A stretch of DNA of 64,000 nt from Myxococcota bacterium (GCA_030748735.1 JASMLK010000080.1:16697-80696); one strand, 5' to 3'. Counted from the stretch's first letter, positions 5,556 through 58,606 are shown. Program-made: numbers and translations. Notes: generated by a model not told the origin, from the sequence alone.

Positions 5556-6791
5556 CTACGCGTCGGATTCACCCGCGCGCCGCCGGCGACGGGCTGCGAG
5601 TTCGAGCTTCATCGACTTCAAGATCAAGCGCGGCAACCCCAGTGGATGCTGGCGCAGCTTGCGAAGCACCAGACGCAGCATATGGCGACGGCCATCGAAG
5701 TTCGCTTCGCGTTGCCCGTGCCCCATGTGCATGCCGAGGGCCGGAACGTCGATCACGTCGAGTGGGAGTTCGAAGCGAAACGTCTCGGTTCGCGGTGGCA
5801 GGCAGATGTCGTCGTTGCAGGCCTGGTAGCGCACGCGGACTTCGACTTCGGCGCTCGTCATGTCGAGGGGGCGCGTCTCGCTCGCAAGAACTCCCGTGGG
5901 ATAGACGGGGACCACAACGTCGAAGTCGCCACTGAAGACCGGTAGCTCCATGCCCATGCTCTCGAGGCGGAGGATTTCTGGCTCTGGCATCTGCGGCGGC
6001 TCGACGGCGAGCCCCGGAGGCCCAGCCACGTCGACCTGCAGCGGGATCATGCCTTCGGGCACCGGTTCGCCGTAGACGTGCATGCCCGCTGAGAGTTCGC
6101 AGCGAACGACGATCTGACGAATGACGCCCTGGCGAAGCGTCGCGCTGCCGCCGTGGACGAAAGCCGTCACGCGAACTTCGTCATCACCACCGCTGGCGCG
6201 CGGGGCGTCGTCTGCGATCACAGCGCGACCGAAGGCAGCGTCGATCAGCACTTCGGGGCTATCGCGCTTCTTGTAGGTGTCGTGAAAGAACTTCGCGACC
6301 ACGACACCCGCTTCGTCGGTCACGTAGACGCCGGGGTACGCAATGCCGTGGAGGAAGGCGTCGTCCTTGCCGACCTGGTCGTTCAGGATGCCGTATCGGC
6401 GGATGACTTCGGAGTCGATGTCGGAGAGCAGCCGAAACGGGATGTCCTGCTTGGCCGCAAACTCGCGGAGCACGGGCTGGTCGTCGTACGAGATTGCGTA
6501 GAGCTCGATCCCCGCGTCTTCGAACTTCGCAAAGGCGTCGCGCAGCTCACCGAGCTGCGTCCAGCACGGGGGTCACCAGACCGCGGAGCGATAGAAGACC
6601 ACCACCGCCTTCGCGTTGCCACGCGTCTTGTGGAAGTCGACGGGAACGCCGTCCTTGTCGGGCAACACGAAATCCGGGAGACGTTCGCCCACCTCGGGGC
6701 CAGTCGGGTGCGCGTTGGGCAGCCCGGAGCGAGCGGGGTGCCCGAGCGGCGCCGGGGCATCGAAACCGTGATGGTCGCGTTCGATCGTCAT
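5556..6791 (-). CDS. Predicted selenoprotein: PRX_like (AhpC/TSA redoxin) domain with W-U-P-P-C active site, fused to a DsbD-alpha-like domain; in-frame TGA at 6573..6575
   Basis: ORFs 6573..6791 and 5556..6473 are in the same frame, separated only by TGA (99 nt = 33 codons to the next listed Met). Read-through gives ..AVVVFYRSAVW-U-PPCWTQLGELRDAFAKFEDAGIELYAISYDD... The C-terminal half carries YQACNDDICLPP, a DsbD-alpha-type motif. GAGGAAGG RBS lies before the ATG at 6791. Confidence 0.75.
6541..6559 (-). promoter_or_regulatory. bSECIS-like hairpin downstream of the UGA at 6573..6575
   Basis: RNA reads UGA + 13 nt + CGCAGCUC-GGU-GAGCUGCG. Perfect 8-bp stem with a G-containing apical loop. 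Confidence 0.6.
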
Positions 6792-44391: not shown

Positions 44392-45582
44392 ATGACGAGC
44401 TTCGACTACGCCGCTAGCCCCGACCCCATCCGCAACGACCTGGCCGATGCCCATCGCCGGCAGTGGCAACGCATCGCCAACACAGGCACCTGGCTCACCG
44501 GCGCCCAGCGGGTCGCCGTGGCGGAGGAAACGCGATGGGCGCGCGACTGCGCGCTCTGCCGCGAGCGCAAACGGGCGCTCTCGCCCTTCGCAGTCGACGG
44601 CGAACACGATCATGCGGGCGTTCTTCCGGCACCGATGGTCGACGAAATCCACCGTGTCACGACCGACGCGGCGCGCCTTTCGCAGAAGTGGTTCGAGTCG
44701 TTGCTCGAGCAGGGCCTCAGCGCCGACGCATACGTCGAGGCTCTCGGCGTCGCGGTCTGCACGATCAGCATCGACGGCTTTCATCACGCGATGGGACTGC
44801 CCGTCGAACCCCTTCCCGAACCGAACGACGGCGAGCCGACACGCGAGCGCCCCGACGATCTCGTCGAAGGTGAAGCCTGGGTGCCGATGCGCGCACCGAA
44901 GGGCCTCAGTGCAGAACTCGGCCTTCCGGCCGGACAGGCGCCCTACGTGATTCGCGCGCTCTCACTCGTCCCCGCCGAAGTCCACGCCTGGGATGACCTC
45001 AGCGCCGCCCAGTACCTGAACAAGCAACAGATGATGCGCTTCGAAAAGGTCCGCGCGATCGACCGCTCACAGATCGAACTCGTGGCCGGCCGCGTCAGCG
45101 CACTCAACGAGTGTTTCTACTGAACGACTTCCCACGCGGTGATGCTCCGTGCGAGCATCGAGTATTCGGGAAGTGGCGGGCAGCTCGGTGGCATCACAGA
45201 GGGTTCCAAGGCGGGTGACGCGGGCATCGAGCATGGCGAACGACTTACGGCCTTCGCGGACGCAGCGGTTTCGGGTGACCCGGCAGCGCTGGCTACTGCG
45301 CGGGACGCCCTGCGCGAAGCGGCCGGGTCCGCGGTCGTCGTCGACGCCGCCGGCGTGATCGGCAACTTCCAGCGCATGGTGCGCATTGCAGACGGCTCGG
45401 GGATCCCCCTCGACACCATGGTCGACACGATGTCGTCCGACATCCGCGAAGACCTCGGCCTCGAGGGCTTCGAGAGCCGCAGGCTCGCCGAGCAGGGTGC
45501 GCTCGCGAAACTGTTTGCGCCGGTTGCGCGCGGGGCTGCAATGCTGGGACTGCGTATCGCGGGCCGGCGCGGACGTCGCTAG
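44392..45582 (+). CDS. Predicted selenoprotein: AhpD/carboxymuconolactone-decarboxylase (CMD)-core protein, in-frame TGA at 45121..45123 (C-x-x-U-x-x-x-H)
   Basis: ORFs 44392..45123 and 45139..45582 share a frame (747 nt offset). Read-through gives ..VSALNECFY-U-TTSHAVMLRASIEY.., which matches the AhpD C-x-x-C-x-x-x-H spacing with the His located after the TGA. GGAGG RBS present. Confidence 0.75.
45141..45159 (+). promoter_or_regulatory. bSECIS-like hairpin downstream of the UGA at 45121
   Basis: UGA + 17 nt + GAUGCUC-CGUGC-GAGCAUC. 7-bp stem with a 5-nt loop whose second base is G. Confidence 0.6.
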
Positions 45583-45606: not shown

Positions 45607-46377
45607 GTGGATCGCTTCAGCGTCGCAGGCAAACACATCGCCATCACCGGTGCGTCGTCGGGCTTCGGGCACCACTTCGCTGGTGTGCTCGCGCGCGAAG
45701 GCGCCCGGGTAAGCCTCGGGGCGCGGCGCACGGAAAAGATCGAAGCGCGTGTCGACGGGCTGCGCGGCGAGGGTCACGCGGCTTTCGGTGCGGCCCTCGA
45801 CGTCTGCGACCGCGCGAGCATGGAAGCCTTCTTCACGACCATCGAAGCCGAGTTCGGCCCGGTCGACGTCTTGATCAACAATGCCGGGATCGAAGCCGGC
45901 GCCAAGACCTATACGATGATCGACGAAGACGACTGGGACGCGGTCATCGACACGAACCTCAAGAGCGCATGGCTCATGAGCAAGCTCTACACCGAGCGCG
46001 TCGTCGCCAACGAGCAGCGCGAAGGCAATATCGTGATGATCTCGTCGATCACCGACACGCGGACCATCAAGGGACAGTTCCCGTATGCGATCTCGAAAGG
46101 CGGCGTGACCCGCATGACCGAAGTCCTCGCCCTCGAAGCCCCGCGCTATGGCATTCGCGTGAACGCCATTGCGCCGGGCTACATCCTCACCGACGTGAGC
46201 CGCCTGGTCGTCGAGGGTGACAACGCCCCCGACTTCGTGAAAGGCATCCCGATGCGCCGCTTCGGAAAGTTCGAAGACCTCGACGGGCCGCTCCTGCTGC
46301 TCGCTTCGGACGCGTCGCGCTGGATGAACGGGTCGATCGTGGTGGTCGACGGCGGGCACGTCTGCGCTTCTCTCTAG
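45607..46377 (+). CDS. Short-chain dehydrogenase/reductase (SDR)
   Basis: ITGASSGFGHHFA (TGxxxGxG), NNAG, and S..YAISK catalytic residues. GAGGAGA RBS precedes the GTG start. Confidence 0.9.
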   Translation: MDRFSVAGKHIAITGASSGFGHHFAGVLAREGARVSLGARRTEKIEARVDGLRGEGHAAFGAALDVCDRASMEAFFTTIEAEFGPVDVLINNAGIEAGAKTYTMIDEDDWDAVIDTNLKSAWLMSKLYTERVVANEQREGNIVMISSITDTRTIKGQFPYAISKGGVTRMTEVLALEAPRYGIRVNAIAPGYILTDVSRLVVEGDNAPDFVKGIPMRRFGKFEDLDGPLLLLASDASRWMNGSIVVVDGGHVCASL

Positions 46378-46415: not shown

Positions 46416-47519
46416 CTATCCGACGCCCAGAACGCGCGCGGGGGCCTTTGCGGGGTCGCCGCGTTCGATCTCGGTGTTGGCTGCTCCGCCGAACGCATTG
46501 AGCCCCAGGCGTTCGCGAAAGTCGGCCGAGCCGTGGAGCGTGCCCTCGTCGAGCGGGATCCCGCTCGAGTCGGCGGTGCGAACGAGCCCGTTGAAGATGC
46601 CCACGATGCCGCAGGCTTCCACGAAGCCCGCTTCACCCAGCGTCTTTCGCACGGCCTCACGTGCGGGGTCCATGTCGTCGTTGCCTCGCGTGACGGCTTC
46701 GGCGAAACGCACGAGGGCTTCGCCGTGTTCGATGTCGGAGGCACCCTCCCCGCCCACGGTGGCGTCGAGATTCACTTCCTGGCCAAGCTTGTCGCTGCTC
46801 GCACGGAGCAGACCCACATGGGAGGTCGTTCAGTAGAAGCATTCGTTGACGGCGCTGACCCGGGCCGCGATGAGTTCGGCTTGCGGGCGATCGAGCGGCC
46901 CTCCCCACTCCATGTCGTAGAAGCCGCCCGAGCCGTTGCTGTACATCGCCATCACGTTGGCGAAGAACAGTTGGTTCGCCGACGGTACGAGCGATAGCGC
47001 TCGCGCAACGTTGGGCCCCGTGAAGGGATCGATCATGGGCACGTGGGCGCCTGCGTCGGTTGCTTCGGCGAGTCGGCCGCCGTCGGGTTCACCGGGCTGC
47101 GGGTCCGGCAGCGGTTCGTGCGCGCGCCCCAGGGCTTCGCTGTACGCATCGATCGCACTCATGCAGGCCACGATCGAGATCAGTTCGACGTACGCGCCGT
47201 CACCCAGGGCTGCGATCTTCTTCGCCGCCCACTCGGAATCGATCTTGTGCGCATCGGCCGCGATCGTGCGTGCGGCGTCGACCGCGACTTCGGAGAGACG
47301 GCCTTCGGCGTCCGGAAGACCTTCGCGCAACCACGACGGGTCACCCCGCTTCGCCCGCGTGGCCCGCGCCTGGCGCGCGATCTCGAGGCGTTGTTCGCCC
47401 GTGAAGTACGAACCCGCATTCGCGATCTGCTGCCAACTGGTGCGGTGGACCTGCTGGATCGTGTCGCGTACCGCGAACCCGTCACGGTCGTAGGCGAAGG
47501 TCGAATCGAAGGACGTCAT
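46416..47519 (-). CDS. Predicted selenoprotein: second AhpD/CMD-core protein, in-frame TGA at 46830..46832
   Basis: ORFs 46830..47519 and 46416..46817 are in frame (12 nt apart). Read-through gives ..VSAVNECFY-U-TTSHVGLLRASSDKL... Paralog of 44392..45582, with the same MTSFD N-terminus and NECFYUTTSH core. GGAGG RBS present. Confidence 0.75.
46795..46811 (-). promoter_or_regulatory. bSECIS-like hairpin downstream of the UGA at 46830..46832
   Basis: UGA + 18 nt + CUGCUC-CGUGC-GAGCAG. The loop is identical to the paralog's. One stem pair differs by a compensatory A-U to C-G change. Confidence 0.6.
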
Positions 47520-47581: not shown

Positions 47582-48229
47582 TCAGATCGGGCCGCGGCCC
47601 TTCCGCCCGCCGAGGATCCAACGAATCATTTCGAGGTGTTGGCCACCCCAGAAGAGTTCGTCGTCGATCCAATAGACGGGCGCCCCTACCGCCATCCCGC
47701 GATCGAAGAGTTCTTCTCCGAGTGCGGCCAAAGTCGCGGGGCCGCGATCTCGCTGCCACGCTTCGAAACCGTCGGCTTCGAGGCCGAGTGCTGCGACCTT
47801 TTTCGCAACGGCCTCCTCGTCCGAGGGATCCAATTCCAGCGCCCAGTACGCACGGAAGATCTCGGCGAGATAATCTGCGACGCACCCGGGGGCGTGTTCG
47901 CGCACCCAGAGCCAACCCACGTTGGCCGCTGCTGGATCGGGGTCACGATAGTAGTCGCGCAACACCAACCCCTGAGCGGACGCGTAGGTTTCGATTTCTC
48001 GCGCGATCTCGCTCGCACGAGAGCGGCGGTGGCGAACGCCGCGATCATCGTCCGCACCCGGCTGCGAAGGCGCCTTCAAGGATGGAACGCTTACGGGCAA
48101 CCAGTTGATGTCGATCCCCGCTTCTCGCCCGAGCTCGATCGTCGGGTGCAATGCGAGATACGTCAGTGGTTGACGCAGGTCGAGGAGTACCGTGAGGCGC
48201 GCTTCGTCGATCGCAGAAGAAAAGCTCAT
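47582..48229 (-). CDS. DsbA-like thioredoxin-fold protein, 2-hydroxychromene-2-carboxylate isomerase / GST-kappa family
   Basis: ..LLDLRQPLTYLAL.. N-terminal motif, with Gln where the family usually has the catalytic Ser. C-terminal GAPVYWIDDELFWGGQHL. Start overlaps the upstream stop (ATGA). Confidence 0.8.
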   Translation of the reverse strand: MSFSSAIDEARLTVLLDLRQPLTYLALHPTIELGREAGIDINWLPVSVPSLKAPSQPGADDDRGVRHRRSRASEIAREIETYASAQGLVLRDYYRDPDPAAANVGWLWVREHAPGCVADYLAEIFRAYWALELDPSDEEAVAKKVAALGLEADGFEAWQRDRGPATLAALGEELFDRGMAVGAPVYWIDDELFWGGQHLEMIRWILGGRKGRGPI

Positions 48230-48918
48230 GCCGCGAACGACCGATTCATCATCAGCGGAGCCGGGCCCTCCTTCCCGCTCAACAGCCAGGCGATGCGGGG
48301 GAGATGCTCGCGACCAAACCAGGCTTCGTCCTCGACGAGAAAGGTCGGCACACCGAACACGCCGCCATCGAAGGCGCGCGTGTTGACTTCGTCATGCAAC
48401 GCCCGCCCTTCGCCTGATGCGTAACTTTCGAAGCCAATCGTTTCGAGCCCGGCCTTCTTCAACACGCTTTCGAACACCGCGACGTCCTCGATGTCGAGTT
48501 CGCGGTTCCAGAACGGCGGATACACGGTGTCGAGAAAGCGATCGTACGCCTCAGGTCCCTGCGCCTTCGCCCACAGCATCGCAATACCGGCGAGACTCGA
48601 ATCCCAGATCTTGATCGTCCCCCGCACGGTCTTCCCGGTGAGATTCGCGTAGCGACGGGCGTCCATGTACGCGTACTTCACGCCCTTCCATTGCTGCGGT
48701 GAGCGCTTGCTCTTTGCGACCTTCCCCTTCTTGTCGAGCTTTGCGCTCCCGAGATAGCTCGGGATGTCGAGTGTGAAGGGGCGCCAGTCGACCTCGACGC
48801 CGAGCGCACGCGCCATGTCGCGCGTCGGCTCGATCGCGAGGTAGGCGTACGGGCTCTTGAGGTCGATGTAGACCGCGAGGGCGTGATCGCCGCGCAGCTC
48901 ACTGAATGCGTTCGACAT
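48226..48918 (-). CDS. DsbA-like thioredoxin-fold protein, 2-hydroxychromene-2-carboxylate isomerase / GST-kappa family
   Basis: VYIDLKSPYAYLA (the SPY motif carrying the Ser) and GVFGVPTFLVEDEAWFGREHL are family signatures. Confidence 0.85.
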   Translation of the reverse strand: MSNAFSELRGDHALAVYIDLKSPYAYLAIEPTRDMARALGVEVDWRPFTLDIPSYLGSAKLDKKGKVAKSKRSPQQWKGVKYAYMDARRYANLTGKTVRGTIKIWDSSLAGIAMLWAKAQGPEAYDRFLDTVYPPFWNRELDIEDVAVFESVLKKAGLETIGFESYASGEGRALHDEVNTRAFDGGVFGVPTFLVEDEAWFGREHLPRIAWLLSGKEGPAPLMMNRSFAA

Positions 48919-48927
48919 GGTCGTGCT

Positions 48928-49350
48928 TCAGCCCTCCCGCGGAGGCAAGGTCTGTTGCGTGGCGATGAGTCGCGAATCGTCGAGAGCCGCTGTTCGATGA
49001 ACCGCGATGGTCAGGTATTCCTCACTCGTCGTCATGTCGATGAAATGCTGGAGCGAGGGATATTCCACGATGACCGCGTCGTCCCAGGCTTCGGCCTCCG
49101 GCGCAATCGGAGCGGAGAGCACGCTACCGGCCCAAATCGGGCGACCGCCCTGCTTGGCGACCAACGGCAGCACCCCATGTCCATAGCGGTCGTAGGCCTC
49201 GCGCCCCGAGCACGGTTCGTGCCCCGAGCCTGCCTCGTACGCGGCTTCGTCGCGGTAGCGCAGCAGATTGATCATCACGAGCGGCCGCGCATCTTTCGCG
49301 TTGGCGAGCAGTTCATCCATCTGGTCCTGGCGGGGTTCGACGGCGCCCAT
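48928..49350 (-). CDS. DUF1330 domain protein
   Basis: PLVMINLLRYRDEAAY.. and DDAVIVEYPSLQHFIDM parallel the DUF1330 gene at 12749..13192. Confidence 0.8.
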   Translation of the reverse strand: MGAVEPRQDQMDELLANAKDARPLVMINLLRYRDEAAYEAGSGHEPCSGREAYDRYGHGVLPLVAKQGGRPIWAGSVLSAPIAPEAEAWDDAVIVEYPSLQHFIDMTTSEEYLTIAVHRTAALDDSRLIATQQTLPPREG

Positions 49351-49436
49351 ATTCGCTTTCTCCCTGGTTTCTTCAGCGGCGATTCAGGGTAACAATCCGC
49401 GGGCGCAAGGCCCGCAAACCCGGAGAGATCACGCGC

Positions 49437-49719
49437 ATGGTTCGAATCGTCCTGATCGTCGTTGGCGTGCTGCTCCTTGTCGTGCTCGGCTATGCCTACT
49501 ACACCAACGCGGTCGCGAACCCGCGGGCGTTGCAGGACATCCGCGACGCCCCGAACGGGGGTCGCGCGGATCGCGTGATGGGCCTGACGCTCCCCGACGG
49601 CCGCACGATCCCCGTGCACGAAGGACGTCTTCTCGCGCCTGCGCCCGAATGCCGTGCCGGGCTTCGGCACGCTCGTCGAGATTCGCTTCGACGCCGGGCC
49701 CGGGACGCTGGCGCCCTGA
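49437..49719 (+). CDS. Small N-terminally membrane-anchored protein, apparently frameshifted near 49615
   Basis: MVRIVLIVVGVLLLVVLGYAYY.. looks like a TM anchor. After ..GRTIPV the protein-like reading (DVFSRLRPNAVPGFGTLVEIRFDAGPGTLAP*) continues in the +1 frame to TGA 49717..49719. The frame-0 continuation is junk that overlaps the next gene. Confidence 0.3.
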
Positions 49720-49740
49720 GGAACGCTCGGGGAGCGTTCC
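49720..49740 (+). terminator. Perfect 9-bp hairpin immediately after the small ORF
   Basis: GGAACGCTC-GGG-GAGCGTTCC. It is followed by GAAAAGG, with no U-tract. Confidence 0.35.
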
Positions 49741-49816
49741 GAAAAGGGGTGGCTACAGTCCGTCCCGTTCTTCGATCTCGCGCCCGGGGTAGCGAAGACA
49801 AGAAAGGGGACCACCC

Positions 49817-50380
49817 ATGGCTTCCACGGACGACGTCATCGAACGACTCGCCACCATCGAACTCGAAGACACCGACGGCAAGATCAACCGCCTCGAATCC
49901 TATTGGCGCGACCAGACGATCGTTCTCGCCTTCGTGCGGCACTTCGGCTGACTCTTCTGCCGCGAGCAAGTCGCGCAGTTGCGCGACCACATGGATGAGA
50001 TTCGTGACCTCGGCGCCGACGTCGTCGTCGTGGGCAACGGTAACCTCGACTTCGCGCAGGCCTTCCGCGAGGACCTCGACTTCGACGGCCCCCTGTTGAT
50101 CGACCCCGAACTCGAAGCCTATCGCGCGGCATCACTTCGGCGCGGACACAAGGAGATCCTGTCGCCTCGCATGCCGCTCAACGCACTGCGATCGATGCGC
50201 AAGGGCTTTCGCCAGACCTCGGTGCAGGGCGACGCGTTCCAGCTCGGCGGCGTCTTCGTGATCCAGACCGGCGGGGAACTCGCCTATCGTTACGCGAGTC
50301 GCGAAGCCGGCGATCATCCGCCGATCGAAGACGTTCTCGACGCGATCGTGGCCGACCCCGCGGAGTTCGAAGTCGGCTAG
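49817..50380 (+). CDS. Predicted selenoprotein: AhpC/TSA_2 (PRXL2/peroxiredoxin-like 2) family, in-frame TGA at 49949..49951 (U-x-x-C)
   Basis: ATG at 49817 follows AAAGGGGA. 44 codons later TGA occurs, and ORF 49979..50380 is in the same frame. Read-through gives ..IVLAFVRHFG-U-LFCREQVAQLRDHMDEI.., matching the family motif F.RH.GC..CRE. Confidence 0.75.
49970..49987 (+). promoter_or_regulatory. bSECIS-like hairpin downstream of the UGA at 49949
   Basis: UGA + 18 nt + GUCGCGC-AGUU-GCGCGAC. 7-bp perfect stem with G in the loop. Confidence 0.6.
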
Positions 50381-51447
50381 AACGCGCGCGTTTCCCCGAT
50401 GTCGAGAATCCACACGTTTTCGTCCGACAACCCCTGCGCACGTCCCGCAGCACGCATCCGCACGGGCGGCTCATCGAGCGGCTCGTCCGCCAGGTCGAAC
50501 GTGCCGAAGTGCATGCCGAGCAAGCGCTTGCCCGCGACATCGACCCCGACAGCCACTGCCTCCTCGGGGTTCACGTGGGCGTCACGCATCATCTCGCGCG
50601 GTTCATAGGCGCCGATGGGAACGGCTGCGAGATCGAAGGGGCCGAGCCGCGCACCGATCGCCTTGAAGCCGTCGTAGTAACCCGTGTCTCCCGCGAAGTA
50701 GAAGCGCCGCTCTTCCCCCGTCACCGCCCACGACGACCACAGCGCCTTGCGTTCGTCGAACACGCCGCGCCGACTCCAATGCTGCGCGGGCAAGCAGTGC
50801 ACCACGACGCCTTCGACGCCCGCGGTGTCGCCCCAGTCGAGTTCCTGCACGTTCGCGATGCCGGCGTCGCGGAGCAATTCTCCGTTGGCTAGCGGCACGA
50901 AGAAGCGCGTGTCCGTGTTGCGTTCCGCGAGCGCCCGCAACGTGGGCAGGTCGAGATGGTCGTAGTGGTTGTGCGAAACCAGCACGAAGTCGATCGGCGG
51001 GAGATCTTCGAGCGCCACGCCGGGCGGCACCAGACGCGGCGGCCCGGCAAACGAGACCGGGCTCGTGATGTCCGACCAGTTCGGGTCGGTCAGGAAGGTC
51101 ACGTGATCCATCTGCACGAGCAGGGTCGCGTGGCCGATCCAGGTCACGGTCGGCGTGCTGTGTTTCGCGTTTTCGCGCAGGAACGCGCCGTCGTTCGCCA
51201 CGCGCGGCGCCTGGCCCGGCCGCGGGGAGAAAGAAGCCCTCGCGCGGCGCATGAAGAAGGGAAAGCGGGTTCCGACCGTGCCATGCCCGACGGGGCCAGC
51301 GACATTGGCGAAGCGCCCGTCTTCGTCTCGCGGGGCGGACGAAACGTCCGGCTCCGCGCGAGCGGGCAGCGCGCTCGCGAAGAGCAGCGACACCGCGATC
51401 GCGGTCATACTGAAAGCAATAGATACCTTCGACGAAGTCGTACGCAC
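50377..51447 (-). CDS. Secreted MBL-fold metallo-hydrolase (NAPE-PLD-like)
   Basis: Signal peptide ..LLFASALPARA|E. VSHNHYDHLD is the HxHxDH zinc motif. Confidence 0.85.
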   Translation of the reverse strand: MRTTSSKVSIAFSMTAIAVSLLFASALPARAEPDVSSAPRDEDGRFANVAGPVGHGTVGTRFPFFMRRARASFSPRPGQAPRVANDGAFLRENAKHSTPTVTWIGHATLLVQMDHVTFLTDPNWSDITSPVSFAGPPRLVPPGVALEDLPPIDFVLVSHNHYDHLDLPTLRALAERNTDTRFFVPLANGELLRDAGIANVQELDWGDTAGVEGVVVHCLPAQHWSRRGVFDERKALWSSWAVTGEERRFYFAGDTGYYDGFKAIGARLGPFDLAAVPIGAYEPREMMRDAHVNPEEAVAVGVDVAGKRLLGMHFGTFDLADEPLDEPPVRMRAAGRAQGLSDENVWILDIGETRAF

Positions 51448-58399: not shown

Positions 58400-58606
58400 C
58401 ATCCACTGTGGTTCCGCAACCTGCAGGCGGACCCGGAATGCGATGTACAGGTCGGGGCGAAGGCCGTGCATGCCTGCGCGCGGGTCGCCGAAGGGGCGGA
58501 ACGTGAGGAGATCTGGGACAGGATGTGCGAGATCTACCCTCCCTACGTCGACTACCAGAACAACACCGAACGCACGATCCCGGTCGTCGTACTCGACCCG
58601 GCCTGA
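58397..58606 (+). pseudogene. C-terminal fragment of a DDN-like deazaflavin-dependent nitroreductase
   Basis: RHPLWFRNLQADPECDVQVGAKAVHACARVAEGAEREEIWDRMCEIYPPYVDYQNNTERTIPVVVLDPA* matches the last ~40 percent of DDN proteins. It has no N-terminal half and no start codon in its frame. Confidence 0.45.

What the first reader, a model, noticed from the sequence alone, without database searches (positions are those of the whole stretch)
49817..50380. PRXL2/AhpC-TSA_2-type peroxiredoxin-like gene with U-L-F-C active site
The ATG at 49817 has a good RBS and is followed by 44 codons, then TGA 49949-49951, then LFCREQVAQLRDH.. in frame with ORF 49979..50380. The joined motif FVRHFG-U-LFC-RE matches the F-x-R-H-x-G-C-x-x-C-R-E signature of the AhpC/TSA_2 family. 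From memory, vertebrate PRXL2A has C-x-x-C at this position and fish SelU is a Sec-containing member of the same family.

A hairpin GUCGCGC-AGUU-GCGCGAC starts 18 nt after the UGA. The ORF track reports only the C-terminal 133 aa, which lacks the whole active site.
Basis: partly seen in the sequence, partly recalled or inferred. Interest (0 to 1): 0.7.

Follow-up and report, generated by a model that had tools for sequence, protein, structure and literature searches.

The report
Misannotated selenocysteine redox enzyme gene
This is a real gene for a small thioredoxin-fold redox enzyme whose active-site residue is selenocysteine encoded by UGA; standard gene callers cut it in two, but its type (a bacterial U-x-x-C peroxiredoxin-like/SelL-related selenoprotein) is already known.

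Summary
ATG 49817 is followed by 44 codons, TGA 49949-49951, 142 more codons and TAG 50378-50380. An 18-nt hairpin starts 18 nt after the UGA.

Only the joined 187-aa protein passes NCBIfam NF040769 "SelL-related redox protein" (138 bits; halves 77 and 19.5; cutoff 120). The UGA aligns with the first Cys of the near-invariant FVRHFG-C-LF-C-RE motif. The closest solved structure is human PRXL2B (prostamide/PGF synthase).

All 80 related loci from species-level genomes, mostly Myxococcota MAGs, keep TGA at this column. The hairpin codons are frozen at synonymous sites, with some compensatory changes. None of 80 Cys-form homologs forms the hairpin.

The window holds three more UGA-interrupted redox genes, while TGA ends about 17 ordinary genes.

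Most likely it is a U-x-x-C selenol/thiol oxidoreductase that reduces a peroxide or similar substrate through a selenenylsulfide.

Novelty is low: a new member of a known kind. The Sec clade is systematically mis-called in public data. In most relatives it is fused to a short-chain dehydrogenase domain, which I did not find described.

No Sec machinery lies in the window, and selenium insertion is untested.

The parts
49802..49809 (+). Shine-Dalgarno-like GAAAGGGG, 7 nt before the start codon
   Evidence: Read directly from the sequence. No sigma-70-like promoter was found in 49300-50500.
49817..50380 (+). Complete selenoprotein gene of 187 codons including Sec, plus TAG stop (50378-50380)
   Evidence: Translation. 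NF040769 138.3 bits against a cutoff of 120, residues 12-176. PF13911 64.6 bits, PF00578 48.3 bits. AlphaFold model pLDDT 92.8.
49817..49948 (+). N-terminal 44 codons (beta strands of the thioredoxin fold, ending in FVRHFG)
   Evidence: Aligns with the N-termini of full-length Cys homologs; W30, R41, H42 and F43 are invariant. The codons show normal synonymous variation with conserved amino acids across 81 loci. Gene callers list it as an orphan 44-aa ORF.
49949..49951 (+). UGA read as selenocysteine (U45), the first position of the U-L-F-C redox motif
   Evidence: Aligns with the first Cys of CxxC in Cys homologs. TGA is present in 81 of 81 Sec-clade sequences. In the model it lies between strand 34-39 and helix 47-57.
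49958..49960 (+). Codon of Cys48, the resolving cysteine of U-x-x-C
   Evidence: Cys in 81 of 81 Sec loci and invariant in the Cys homologs. Corresponds to Cys47 of PRXL2B.
49970..49987 (+). Candidate bacterial SECIS: 7-bp stem (49970-49976 / 49981-49987) with apical loop AGUU (49977-49980), inside the coding sequence for V-A-Q-L-R-D
   Evidence: 97.8% of cells are paired across 79 distinct sequences, and 3 pairs show double-sided changes. Synonymous sites are frozen: GCG 71/71, CAG 81/81, TTG 80/80. The hairpin is absent in register from 80 of 80 Cys-form homologs and from Cys paralogs lying next to Sec genes. The loop G-U sits at nt 30-31 from the U of UGA, similar to the three other UGA genes of the window.
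49952..50377 (+). C-terminal 142 codons. The part from 49979 or 49991 onward is what ORF finders report (133 or 129 aa).
   Evidence: PF13911 covers residues 54-161.

Best explanation
Window 49817-50380 (+) is one gene for a 187-residue thioredoxin-fold oxidoreductase. It belongs to the SelL-related / PRX-like2 (PRXL2, AhpC-TSA_2) group. Its active site is Sec45-Leu-Phe-Cys48.

How it is read (inferred from anatomy and conservation): UGA 49949-49951 is decoded as selenocysteine because the mRNA forms a hairpin 18 nt downstream (49970-49987). [quoted passage not shown] Without selenium or SelB, translation would stop after 44 residues.

How the enzyme works (inferred by analogy with PRXL2B and other U/CxxC thioredoxin-fold enzymes): the selenolate of U45 sits at the N-terminus of the first helix, next to invariant Arg41. 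It attacks an oxidised substrate, most plausibly the O-O bond of an organic or lipid (endo)peroxide, or possibly a disulfide. The resulting selenenic acid or mixed intermediate is resolved by Cys48 into an intramolecular selenenylsulfide. A thiol reductant such as thioredoxin then re-reduces it.

What is shown: gene structure, family membership, fold, the Cys/Sec pairing, conservation of the UGA, and RNA-level constraint on the hairpin.

What is inferred: actual Sec insertion, SelB binding, the substrate and the reductant.
For: Family and fold:
- The joined protein passes NF040769 (138.3 bits against a cutoff of 120). The halves do not (77.3 and 19.5).
- PF13911 scores 64.6 bits and PF00578 48.3 bits.
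- U aligns with the first Cys of FVRHFG-C-LF-C-REQ in 28 of 30 full-length homologs.
- The AlphaFold model has pLDDT 92.8 and pTM 0.89.
- The best structural match is PRXL2B (TM 0.77/0.87), followed by BCP peroxiredoxins and ResA. Sequence E to PRXL2B is 5e-13, with the motifs aligned.

Conservation of the UGA and hairpin:
- TGA is conserved in 80 of 80 related genome loci, with coding conservation on both sides.
- The hairpin is paired in 97.8% of cells. G-C changes to A-U at pair 4 in 6 sequences.
- Synonymous sites are frozen only inside the hairpin. This includes Leu TTG in 80 of 80, a codon that is otherwise rare in these genes.
- 0 of 80 Cys forms have the hairpin, and VAQLRD is not conserved in them.
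- A CGA (Arg) variant one base from TGA still carries the hairpin.

The organism decodes Sec:
- Three further in-frame-TGA redox genes lie in the same window. Two match NF041238 'alkylhydroperoxidase-related (seleno)protein' at 474 and 312 bits (cutoff 175). One is a Prx-like + DsbD_N gene with W-U-P-P-C. Each has a hairpin with G-U in its loop at nt 26-30.
- TGA terminates about 17 ordinary genes in the window.
- Sec use is documented in the lineage: Anaeromyxobacter has 11 selenoproteins (PMC1794560).

Mechanism analogy: in PRXL2B the Cys44 thiolate is positioned to attack the PGH2 peroxide, a disulfide forms with Cys47, and Arg40 (equivalent to window Arg41) is conserved (PMC12938796).
Against: - No tRNA-Sec, selA, selB or selD lies in the 64-kb window or in the 60 related loci that were scanned for tRNA genes. 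Their presence in the source genome is unverified.
- The hairpin is short (7 bp, 4-nt loop) and no more stable than shuffled GC-rich sequence.
- Covariation is thin because the sequence is nearly invariant (8 double-changed cells).
- No Rfam family matches.
- Substrate and reductant are inferred only from a 22-24% identical human enzyme.
- The gene neighbourhood is conserved only in the closest relative, L003, so context gives little functional information.
Confidence: 0.88

Rival explanations
1. Pseudogene or error. A Cys codon (TGC/TGT) mutated or was mis-sequenced to TGA, so the gene is broken and the hairpin is coincidental.
For: Gene callers report two fragments. One relative has CGA and another has Leu at this column, so the codon can change. 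The hairpin is not thermodynamically exceptional.
Against: TGA is present at the same column in 80 of 80 loci from different species that share only 53-78% identity, with purifying selection on both sides. An identical sequence occurs in two independent assemblies, JGI and Logan. The hairpin codons are frozen at synonymous sites only in the TGA-bearing genes.
Confidence: 0.02
2. TGA is a genuine terminator. The cell makes a 44-aa peptide and, from an internal start (TTG 49979 or ATG 49991), a separate 129-133-aa protein that works without the CxxC motif.
For: This is what public annotation shows. PGAP named the equivalent 138-aa fragment of L081 'peroxiredoxin-like family protein'. The C-terminal half alone still scores 64 bits on PF13911.
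Against: The fragment lacks the central strand, the active-site loop and half of the first helix of the thioredoxin fold. The frame is conserved across the TGA and through 49952-49978 in all loci. Neither half reaches the NF040769 cutoff. All full-length homologs are single chains. No conserved start or RBS is needed at 49979, and the annotated starts of the fragments differ.
Confidence: 0.04
3. UGA is decoded, but as a standard amino acid (Trp, Gly or Cys), by a reassigned code or by near-cognate read-through rather than as selenocysteine.
For: No Sec machinery was seen in the window. Codes 4 and 25 exist in some bacteria (established knowledge).
Against: TGA ends about 17 well-supported genes in the same window. 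The aligned residue in homologs is the redox Cys, the classic Cys/Sec pair. A position-specific conserved hairpin follows the codon. Two neighbouring UGA genes match a curated (seleno)protein family whose name carries the motif CFYUT. The GC content of 65% and the Myxococcota affiliation do not fit the known UGA-reassigned lineages.
Confidence: 0.03

Closest known systems
NCBIfam NF040769, 'SelL-related redox protein' (bacterial; Cys forms are annotated under this name, e.g. MFQ5457378.1)
   Same: The joined protein scores 138.3 bits, above the curated cutoff of 120, over residues 12-176. It has the same FVRHFG-C/U-LF-C-REQ motif and the same length of about 175-190 aa.
   Different: The window protein has Sec where the annotated members have Cys. 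The Sec forms are not recognised by current annotation and are called as fragments of 125-140 aa. Most Sec forms also carry an extra C-terminal SDR domain, which the window's gene lacks.
PRXL2 family / Pfam PF13911 AhpC-TSA_2, in particular human PRXL2B (prostamide/prostaglandin F synthase, PDB 9us9/9usa)
   Same: Thioredoxin-like fold (TM 0.77/0.87). CxxC lies at the same place (C44/C47 against U45/C48) and is preceded by a conserved Arg. The alignment covers residues 15-177. It probably shares the chemistry: the first Cys or Sec attacks a peroxide and the second resolves the intermediate.
   Different: Only 22-24% identity. Bacterial rather than animal. Sec instead of Cys. His42 replaces the second Arg. 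A prostaglandin substrate is not expected in a bacterium.
SelL (Shchedrina et al. 2007, PNAS; fish, invertebrates and marine bacteria), a Prx-like selenoprotein with a U-x-x-U diselenide
   Same: A Prx-like thioredoxin-fold selenoprotein with Sec in the CxxC-equivalent motif. In bacteria the SECIS lies inside the coding region just after the UGA (PMC2398784 and PMC2397514 cite this). The curators of NF040769 call the family SelL-related.
   Different: The motif is U-x-x-C in 81 of 81 sequences, never U-x-x-U, so a selenenylsulfide is expected rather than a diselenide. The SelL paper itself is not held, so direct comparison was impossible. From memory, its abstract mentions distant SelL-like proteins in which one or both Sec are replaced by Cys.
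'Prx-like thiol:disulfide oxidoreductase' and 'Prx-like 1/2/3' bacterial selenoproteins (PF00578/PF08534, UxxC); cd02970 'peroxiredoxin-like family protein' (UxxS)
   Same: Bacterial thioredoxin-fold selenoproteins with Sec at the first position of the redox motif. They are common in Deltaproteobacteria and in metagenomes.
   Different: The window's own example of that kind (5556-6791, W-U-P-P-C) scores 105 bits on PF00578 but only 32 bits on NF040769, so it is a different family. The 2026 review table lists neither NF040769 nor PF13911. Its cd02970 entry has UxxS, not UxxC.
Bacterial SECIS elements (E. coli fdhF type; bSECISearch consensus of Zhang and Gladyshev 2005)
   Same: A stem-loop immediately 3' of the UGA, inside the ORF, with a G-U in the apical loop. 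Spacing falls within the range I recall for the consensus (from memory; general description in PMC9312934).
   Different: A short perfect 7-bp stem with a 4-nt loop and no bulged U. The G-U lies at nt 30-31 from the U of UGA, a few nucleotides further than I recall for fdhF. SelB binding is untested.

Membership tests
Bacterial selenoprotein gene (UGA = Sec) | In-frame UGA aligned with a Cys in homologous proteins | tested here: met
   U45 aligns with the first Cys of CxxC in 28 of 30 full-length homologs.
Bacterial selenoprotein gene (UGA = Sec) | UGA and the coding sequence on both sides are conserved across species | tested here: met
   80 of 80 genome loci keep the TGA. Invariant R-H-F-G lies before it and x-F-C-R-E after it, with normal synonymous drift outside the hairpin.
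Bacterial selenoprotein gene (UGA = Sec) | SECIS stem-loop just downstream of the UGA, under RNA-level selection | tested here: met
   Hairpin at 49970-49987. 97.8% of cells paired and 3 pairs with compensatory changes. Frozen synonymous sites. Absent in 80 of 80 Cys forms. Caveat: not more stable than shuffles.
Bacterial selenoprotein gene (UGA = Sec) | Genome encodes tRNA-Sec, SelA, SelB and SelD | not testable with these tools
   None is in the window or in the flanks of 60 loci. Indirect support: three other UGA-containing (seleno)protein genes in the window.
Bacterial selenoprotein gene (UGA = Sec) | Selenium is actually incorporated at the UGA | not testable with these tools
   Needs 75Se labelling or mass spectrometry.
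NCBIfam NF040769 SelL-related redox protein | Whole-protein score at or above the curated cutoff (120 bits) | tested here: met
   138.3 bits, residues 12-176 on profile positions 4-172 of 173. The halves alone score 77.3 and 19.5.
Pfam PF13911 AhpC-TSA_2 (PRXL2-type) | Score above the gathering threshold (27 bits) and a PRXL2-like fold | tested here: met
   64.6 bits. Best PDB sequence and fold match is PRXL2B. The Pfam match covers only residues 54-161, so it excludes the motif.
Thioredoxin-fold CxxC oxidoreductase | Redox motif at the N-terminus of the first long helix, after a central beta strand | tested here: met
   In the model, strand 34-39, then the loop with U45, then helix 47-57. pLDDT is 94-98 in this region.
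SelL proper (diselenide selenoprotein) | U-x-x-U motif (two Sec) | tested here: not met
   U-x-x-C in the window and in all 81 sequences. Position +3 is TGC or TGT, never TGA.
Typical peroxiredoxin (Prx, PF00578) | P-x-x-x-T/S-x-x-C(U) peroxidatic motif | tested here: not met
   PF00578 scores 48.3 bits, above its cutoff of 26. However, the residue three positions before U45 is His42, and three positions before Cys48 is U45. There is no Thr or Ser. It resembles CxxC-type Prx-like proteins, not canonical Prx.
Eukaryotic SelU (SELENOU / PRXL2A-C Sec forms) | Orthology to SelU, with Sec at the same column | not tested
Only the Cys paralog PRXL2B (PDB) was compared. PMC2397514 confirms that SelU is Sec in fish and Cys in most mammals.

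The most novel reading that the evidence does not exclude
The Sec clade of the SelL-related family may be an undescribed selenoenzyme found across the Myxococcota. It has a U-x-x-C motif and an almost invariant SECIS embedded in V-A-Q-L-R-D.

Its ancestral or dominant form is a protein of about 510 aa that fuses the selenoprotein domain to an RDH/WWOX-like short-chain dehydrogenase. This would be a single-chain module coupling peroxide reduction at the selenol to NAD(P)H-dependent processing of the resulting lipid alcohol or carbonyl. The window's stand-alone gene would be a split-off version.

In the data seen here, only Sec forms carry the fusion. The 2026 review of prokaryotic selenoproteomes mentions neither this family ID nor any short-chain dehydrogenase fusion.
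Probability: 0.3. Interest if true: 0.55.

Novelty: new member of a known kind. Interest (0 to 1): 0.35.

Why it matters
For this window the practical value is correct annotation. A 187-aa selenoenzyme is currently recorded as a 44-aa orphan plus a 129-aa 'hypothetical protein'. The same error affects every one of the 80 species-level genomes examined.

The window contains four UGA-encoded redox proteins in 64 kb. The source organism, a relative of a Myxococcota MAG, is therefore selenoprotein-rich, and its redox and detoxification capacity is underestimated by standard pipelines.

The family offers a very clean natural example of an RNA element (SECIS) constraining both codon choice and the encoded peptide (VAQLRD). 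This is useful for training selenoprotein and SECIS predictors.

The fusion of this domain to a short-chain dehydrogenase in most relatives gives a testable hint about substrate, namely lipid-derived peroxides. That hint could also bear on the poorly understood PRXL2/SelU/SelL group in animals.

Tried and rejected
- Rfam, at gathering thresholds over the whole window and permissively over 49700-50500: nothing relevant. I know of no general bacterial SECIS model in Rfam, so this is uninformative.
- Thermodynamic significance of the hairpin: not significant for any of the four UGA genes. I therefore did not use energy as evidence.
- tRNA-Sec search in the window and in 60 related loci: none.
- Search for selA, selB and selD among window genes: none.
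- Conserved operon context: only L003 is syntenic, so I did not use guilt by association.
- The window's SDR gene (45607-46377) as a split partner of the fused SDR domain: only 28% generic SDR similarity. Rejected.
- DNA of the closest Cys forms that share the VAQLR peptide (P0006, P0048): not retrievable. The Cys-form control therefore uses more distant homologs (28-59% identity) plus four Cys paralogs adjacent to Sec genes.
- The original SelL paper (PMC1955791) is not held. SelL statements rest on papers that cite it and on memory.
- Strict monophyly of the Sec forms: not supported. About 10 Cys forms nest within the Sec clade in a simple NJ tree without support values, so I make no claim of a single Cys-to-Sec event.
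- Other in-frame TGA candidates from the GC3 scan (e.g. 51104, 54278, 56084): the sequence context is not redox-like, and they lie antisense to or upstream of real genes. Not pursued.

Full report
**1. Observation**

The sequence is exactly as described.
- ATG 49817 is preceded by GAAAGGGG 7 nt upstream.
- 44 sense codons end in ...IVLAFVRHFG, followed by TGA at 49949-49951.
- The same frame continues LFCREQVAQLRDH... into the ORF that the mechanical ORF list reports as 49979..50380 (133 aa). It ends at TAG 50378-50380.
- The joined product is 187 residues.
- The hairpin GUCGCGC-AGUU-GCGCGAC lies at 49970-49987, 18 nt after the UGA, and is the centroid structure of the local fold.

The window matches a JGI metagenome contig and, for this locus, an independent Logan assembly. 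There the gene is called as a 44-aa ORF plus a 129-aa 'hypothetical protein'.

**2. One protein, not two**

With Cys substituted for U, the joined sequence gives these scores:

| Model | Joined | N-terminal half | C-terminal half | Cutoff |
|---|---|---|---|---|
| PF13911 AhpC-TSA_2 | 64.6 | no match listed | 64.0 | 27 |
| PF00578 AhpC-TSA | 48.3 | 12.1 | 16.0 | 26 |
| NF040769 SelL-related redox protein | 138.3 | 19.5 | 77.3 | 120 |

PF13911 covers only residues 54-161, downstream of the motif. PF00578 and NF040769 do.

In an alignment with 30 full-length homologs (173-204 aa), the N-terminal 44 residues align throughout. The UGA falls on the first Cys of the near-invariant FVRHFG-C-LF-C-REQ motif. 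W30, R41, H42, F43 and C48 are invariant.

**3. Fold**

An AlphaFold model built from that alignment is confident (pLDDT 92.8, pTM 0.89). It places U45 in the loop between strand 34-39 and helix 47-57, the canonical thioredoxin-fold CxxC position.

The best structural match in the PDB is human prostamide/prostaglandin F synthase, PRXL2B (9usa, TM 0.77/0.87). BCP-type peroxiredoxins and ResA follow. By sequence PRXL2B is also the best solved relative (E = 5e-13). Its RRFG-C44-VV-C47-R motif aligns with RHFG-U45-LF-C48-R.

**4. The UGA is conserved**

The protein search showed a bimodal pattern.
- Close hits (50-100% identity) are 112-148 aa and cover only the C-terminal two-thirds of the query.
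- Hits covering about 90% are at most 53% identical and carry Cys.

I fetched 80 related loci from one-genome-per-species contigs. They are mostly MAGs labelled Myxococcota, delta proteobacterium or Binatia.

All 80 have TGA at the same column, with FxRHFG before it and xFCR after it. An upstream start gives an N-terminal part of about 40-44 aa.

The short proteins in the databases are therefore truncation artefacts. NCBI's pipeline named the 138-aa fragment of L081 'peroxiredoxin-like family protein'.

**5. The hairpin is under RNA-level selection**

Across 79 distinct sequences the 7 pairs are formed in 97.8% of cells. Three pairs show double-sided changes: G-C to A-U at pair 4 in six sequences, coupling an Ala-to-Thr change with a synonymous CGC-to-CGT, plus one sequence each at pairs 1 and 2. 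Slid registers pair in at most 56% of cells. Because the element is almost invariant, covariation alone is thin.

The stronger evidence is synonymous constraint.
- Ala +8 is GCG in 71 of 71 sequences.
- Gln +9 is CAG in 81 of 81.
- Leu +10 is TTG in 80 of 80. TTG is rare at other Leu columns of the same genes (1-4 of 46-78 sequences per column).
- Flanking Ala, Arg, Gly and Leu codons vary freely (1.3-1.8 bits).

Controls:
- In 80 Cys-form homologs from metagenomes, none forms 7 of 7 pairs in this register (mode 2-4). The peptide VAQLRD is not conserved, and Leu +10 is mostly CTG.
- Four Cys paralogs lying beside Sec genes also lack the hairpin.
- A relative with CGA (Arg), one base from TGA, still has the hairpin, so it is a very recent derivative or a sequencing variant.

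Caveat: the hairpin is not more stable than GC-matched shuffles (z = -0.1 to -0.7). Rfam has no match.

**6. Does this organism decode Sec?**

No tRNA-Sec, selA, selB or selD lies in the window, which is unsurprising for 64 kb. However, a GC3-guided scan for in-frame TGA recovered three further genes.
- 44392-45582 (+) and 46416-47519 (−) both read N-E-C-F-Y-U-T-T-S-H. They match NCBIfam NF041238 'AhpD_rel_CFYUT, alkylhydroperoxidase-related (seleno)protein' at 474 and 312 bits (cutoff 175).
- 5556-6791 (−) is a Prx-like (PF00578, 105 bits) plus DsbD_N protein with W-U-P-P-C.

All four UGAs are followed by a hairpin. The apical loop carries G-U at nt 26-31 counted from the U of UGA.

TGA ends about 17 ordinary genes in the window, so the code is not reassigned.

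Sec use is documented for Deltaproteobacteria, including the myxobacterium Anaeromyxobacter with 11 selenoproteins (PMC1794560).

**7. Mechanism**

Shown: gene architecture, family, fold, Cys/Sec pairing and the RNA constraint.

Inferred for decoding: SelB bound to Sec-tRNA(Sec) recognises the 49970-49987 stem-loop and inserts Sec at UGA.

Inferred for catalysis: the selenolate of U45, beside invariant Arg41, attacks an oxidised substrate. Cys48 then resolves the intermediate to a selenenylsulfide, and a thiol reductant recycles it.

The analogy is PRXL2B. There the Cys44 thiolate is positioned 3.3 Å from the PGH2 endoperoxide, a disulfide forms within the CxxC, and Arg40 is strictly conserved (PMC12938796). 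I consider an organic or lipid peroxide the most likely substrate class, but this is not tested.

**8. Architecture in relatives**

In most Sec-clade loci the frame continues about 465-480 codons past the UGA. The extra part is a classical SDR with TGxxxGxG and YxxxK motifs.
- PF00106 scores 92.5 bits.
- The best NCBIfam matches are PRK06197-type oxidoreductases, at 171 bits, below the 268-bit cutoff.
- The N-terminal domain of the fusion still passes NF040769 at 144.5 bits.

The window's gene and a few others (L003, L040, L080, L081) are stand-alone. They are scattered in a simple NJ tree, which suggests repeated gain or loss of the domain. About 10 Cys forms nest within the Sec clade (no support values).

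Full-length Cys forms seen here are all stand-alone. The SDR gene in the window (45607-46377) is only generically similar to the fused domain (28% identity).

Only L003 (Myxococcota PL23a_bin.25) shares the neighbourhood, at 70-88% identity. This places the window near that MAG but gives no operon-level clue.

**9. Comparison with what is known**

Bacterial thioredoxin-fold UxxC selenoproteins of the Prx-like kind have been catalogued since 2004-2008.
- The GOS survey lists Prx-like 1, 2 and 3 (PMC2398784).
- 'Prx-like thiol:disulfide oxidoreductase' with UxxC/UxxU appears in the reviews.
- SelL is described as a Prx-like selenoprotein shared by aquatic eukaryotes and marine bacteria.

The family itself has a curated NCBIfam model whose name ties it to SelL.

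The 2026 review table lists NF041238 (the AhpD-related neighbours) and a cd02970 peroxiredoxin-like protein with UxxS. It lists neither NF040769 nor PF13911, and nothing on short-chain dehydrogenase fusions. A full-text search for NF040769 found no paper.

The window protein is not SelL proper, because it has U-x-x-C and never U-x-x-U. It is not a canonical peroxiredoxin either, because it lacks the T/S-x-x-C(U) motif.

**10. Verdict**

This is a genuine but mis-called selenoprotein gene, and a new member of a known kind. Interest is moderate to low for a specialist.

The points of some value:
- The systematic annotation gap (80 of 80 genomes).
- An unusually clean example of a SECIS constraining both codons and peptide.
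- Four Sec genes in one window.
- The apparently undescribed SelL-like-SDR fusion that dominates the clade outside this window.

The main untested steps are the presence of Sec machinery in the source genome and actual selenium incorporation.

Noticed in passing
window 44392-45582 (+), TGA at 45121-45123: A second selenoprotein gene, split by gene callers into 243 aa + 146 aa. The active site reads N-E-C-F-Y-U-T-T-S-H. It matches NCBIfam NF041238 'AhpD_rel_CFYUT, alkylhydroperoxidase-related (seleno)protein' at 473.8 bits (cutoff 175). A hairpin GAUGCUC-CGUGC-GAGCAUC lies at 45141-45159.
   Followed up: partly
window 46416-47519 (-), TGA at 46830-46832: A paralog of the previous gene on the opposite strand (229 aa + 133 aa as called), with the same C-F-Y-U-T-T-S-H motif. 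NF041238 scores 311.8 bits. Its hairpin CUGCUC-CGUGC-GAGCAG has the same loop. It is syntenic in L003.
   Followed up: partly
window 5556-6791 (-), TGA at 6573-6575: A fourth candidate selenoprotein with the motif VVVFYRSAVW-U-PP-C-WTQL. It has an AhpC-TSA domain (PF00578, 105 bits) and a C-terminal DsbD_N domain (45 bits). The hairpin CGCAGCUC-GGU-GAGCUGCG lies at about 6541-6559. It scores only 32 bits on NF040769, so it belongs to a different family from the target.
   Followed up: partly
L004-L082 (e.g. L008 2878-4401; CP070734.1): In most Sec-form relatives the SelL-like domain is fused to a C-terminal short-chain dehydrogenase of about 330 aa, with motifs VTGANSGIG and YAETK. PF00106 scores 92.5 bits. 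The total length is about 505-520 aa. All full-length Cys forms seen are stand-alone. The fusion is not mentioned in the 2026 selenoproteome review.
   Followed up: partly
L010:5483, L014:5514, L069:4672, L071:4611: A Cys-form paralog (FLRHFG-C-[IL]FCRE) lies 1.6-2.5 kb downstream of the Sec gene in four genomes. It has no hairpin after the Cys codon.
   Followed up: partly
L163:186-740 (P0016); P0062: Two full-length homologs have neither Cys nor Sec at the active-site column. P0016 has Arg encoded by CGA, one base from TGA, with the SECIS hairpin intact. P0062 has Leu. They may be recent inactivating mutations or assembly errors.
   Followed up: partly
L022 and L025, hairpin columns 25-26 / 35-36 of alignment A3: These two loci carry GUCGAGC...GCGAGAC. 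This replaces two central G-C pairs with a tandem G·A/A·G mismatch rather than a compensatory pair. L073 has a single C-to-A change in the 3' arm.
   Followed up: no
window 47582-48229 (-) and 48226-48918 (-): Two overlapping DSBA-fold genes (PF01323) lie between the AhpD-related genes and the target. One reads DLKSPYAYL where a CxxC would be expected, which recalls (from memory) the HCCA-isomerase / GST-kappa branch rather than a thiol-disulfide oxidoreductase. Together with DUF1330 (48928-49350) and the three Sec genes, they form a redox/detoxification island that is conserved in L003.
   Followed up: no
window about 58400-58606 (+): Only the C-terminal ~65 residues of an F420H2-dependent quinone reductase (Ddn-like, PF04075) are in frame (...HPLWFRNLQADPE...IPVVVLDPA*). 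The upstream part is out of frame, so this is a possible frameshifted pseudogene or sequencing error. No in-frame TGA is involved.
   Followed up: no
whole window: GC content is 65%. Stop codon usage among 44 confident ORFs is TAG 22, TGA 19 and TAA 3. The gene content is mostly acyl-CoA and lipid metabolism (thiolase, enoyl-CoA hydratase, CoA-transferase, carboxyl transferase, thioesterase) plus GST, a luciferase-like monooxygenase and CofD (F420 biosynthesis). This is consistent with a lipid-oxidising aerobic or microaerobic Myxococcota-like organism.
   Followed up: no
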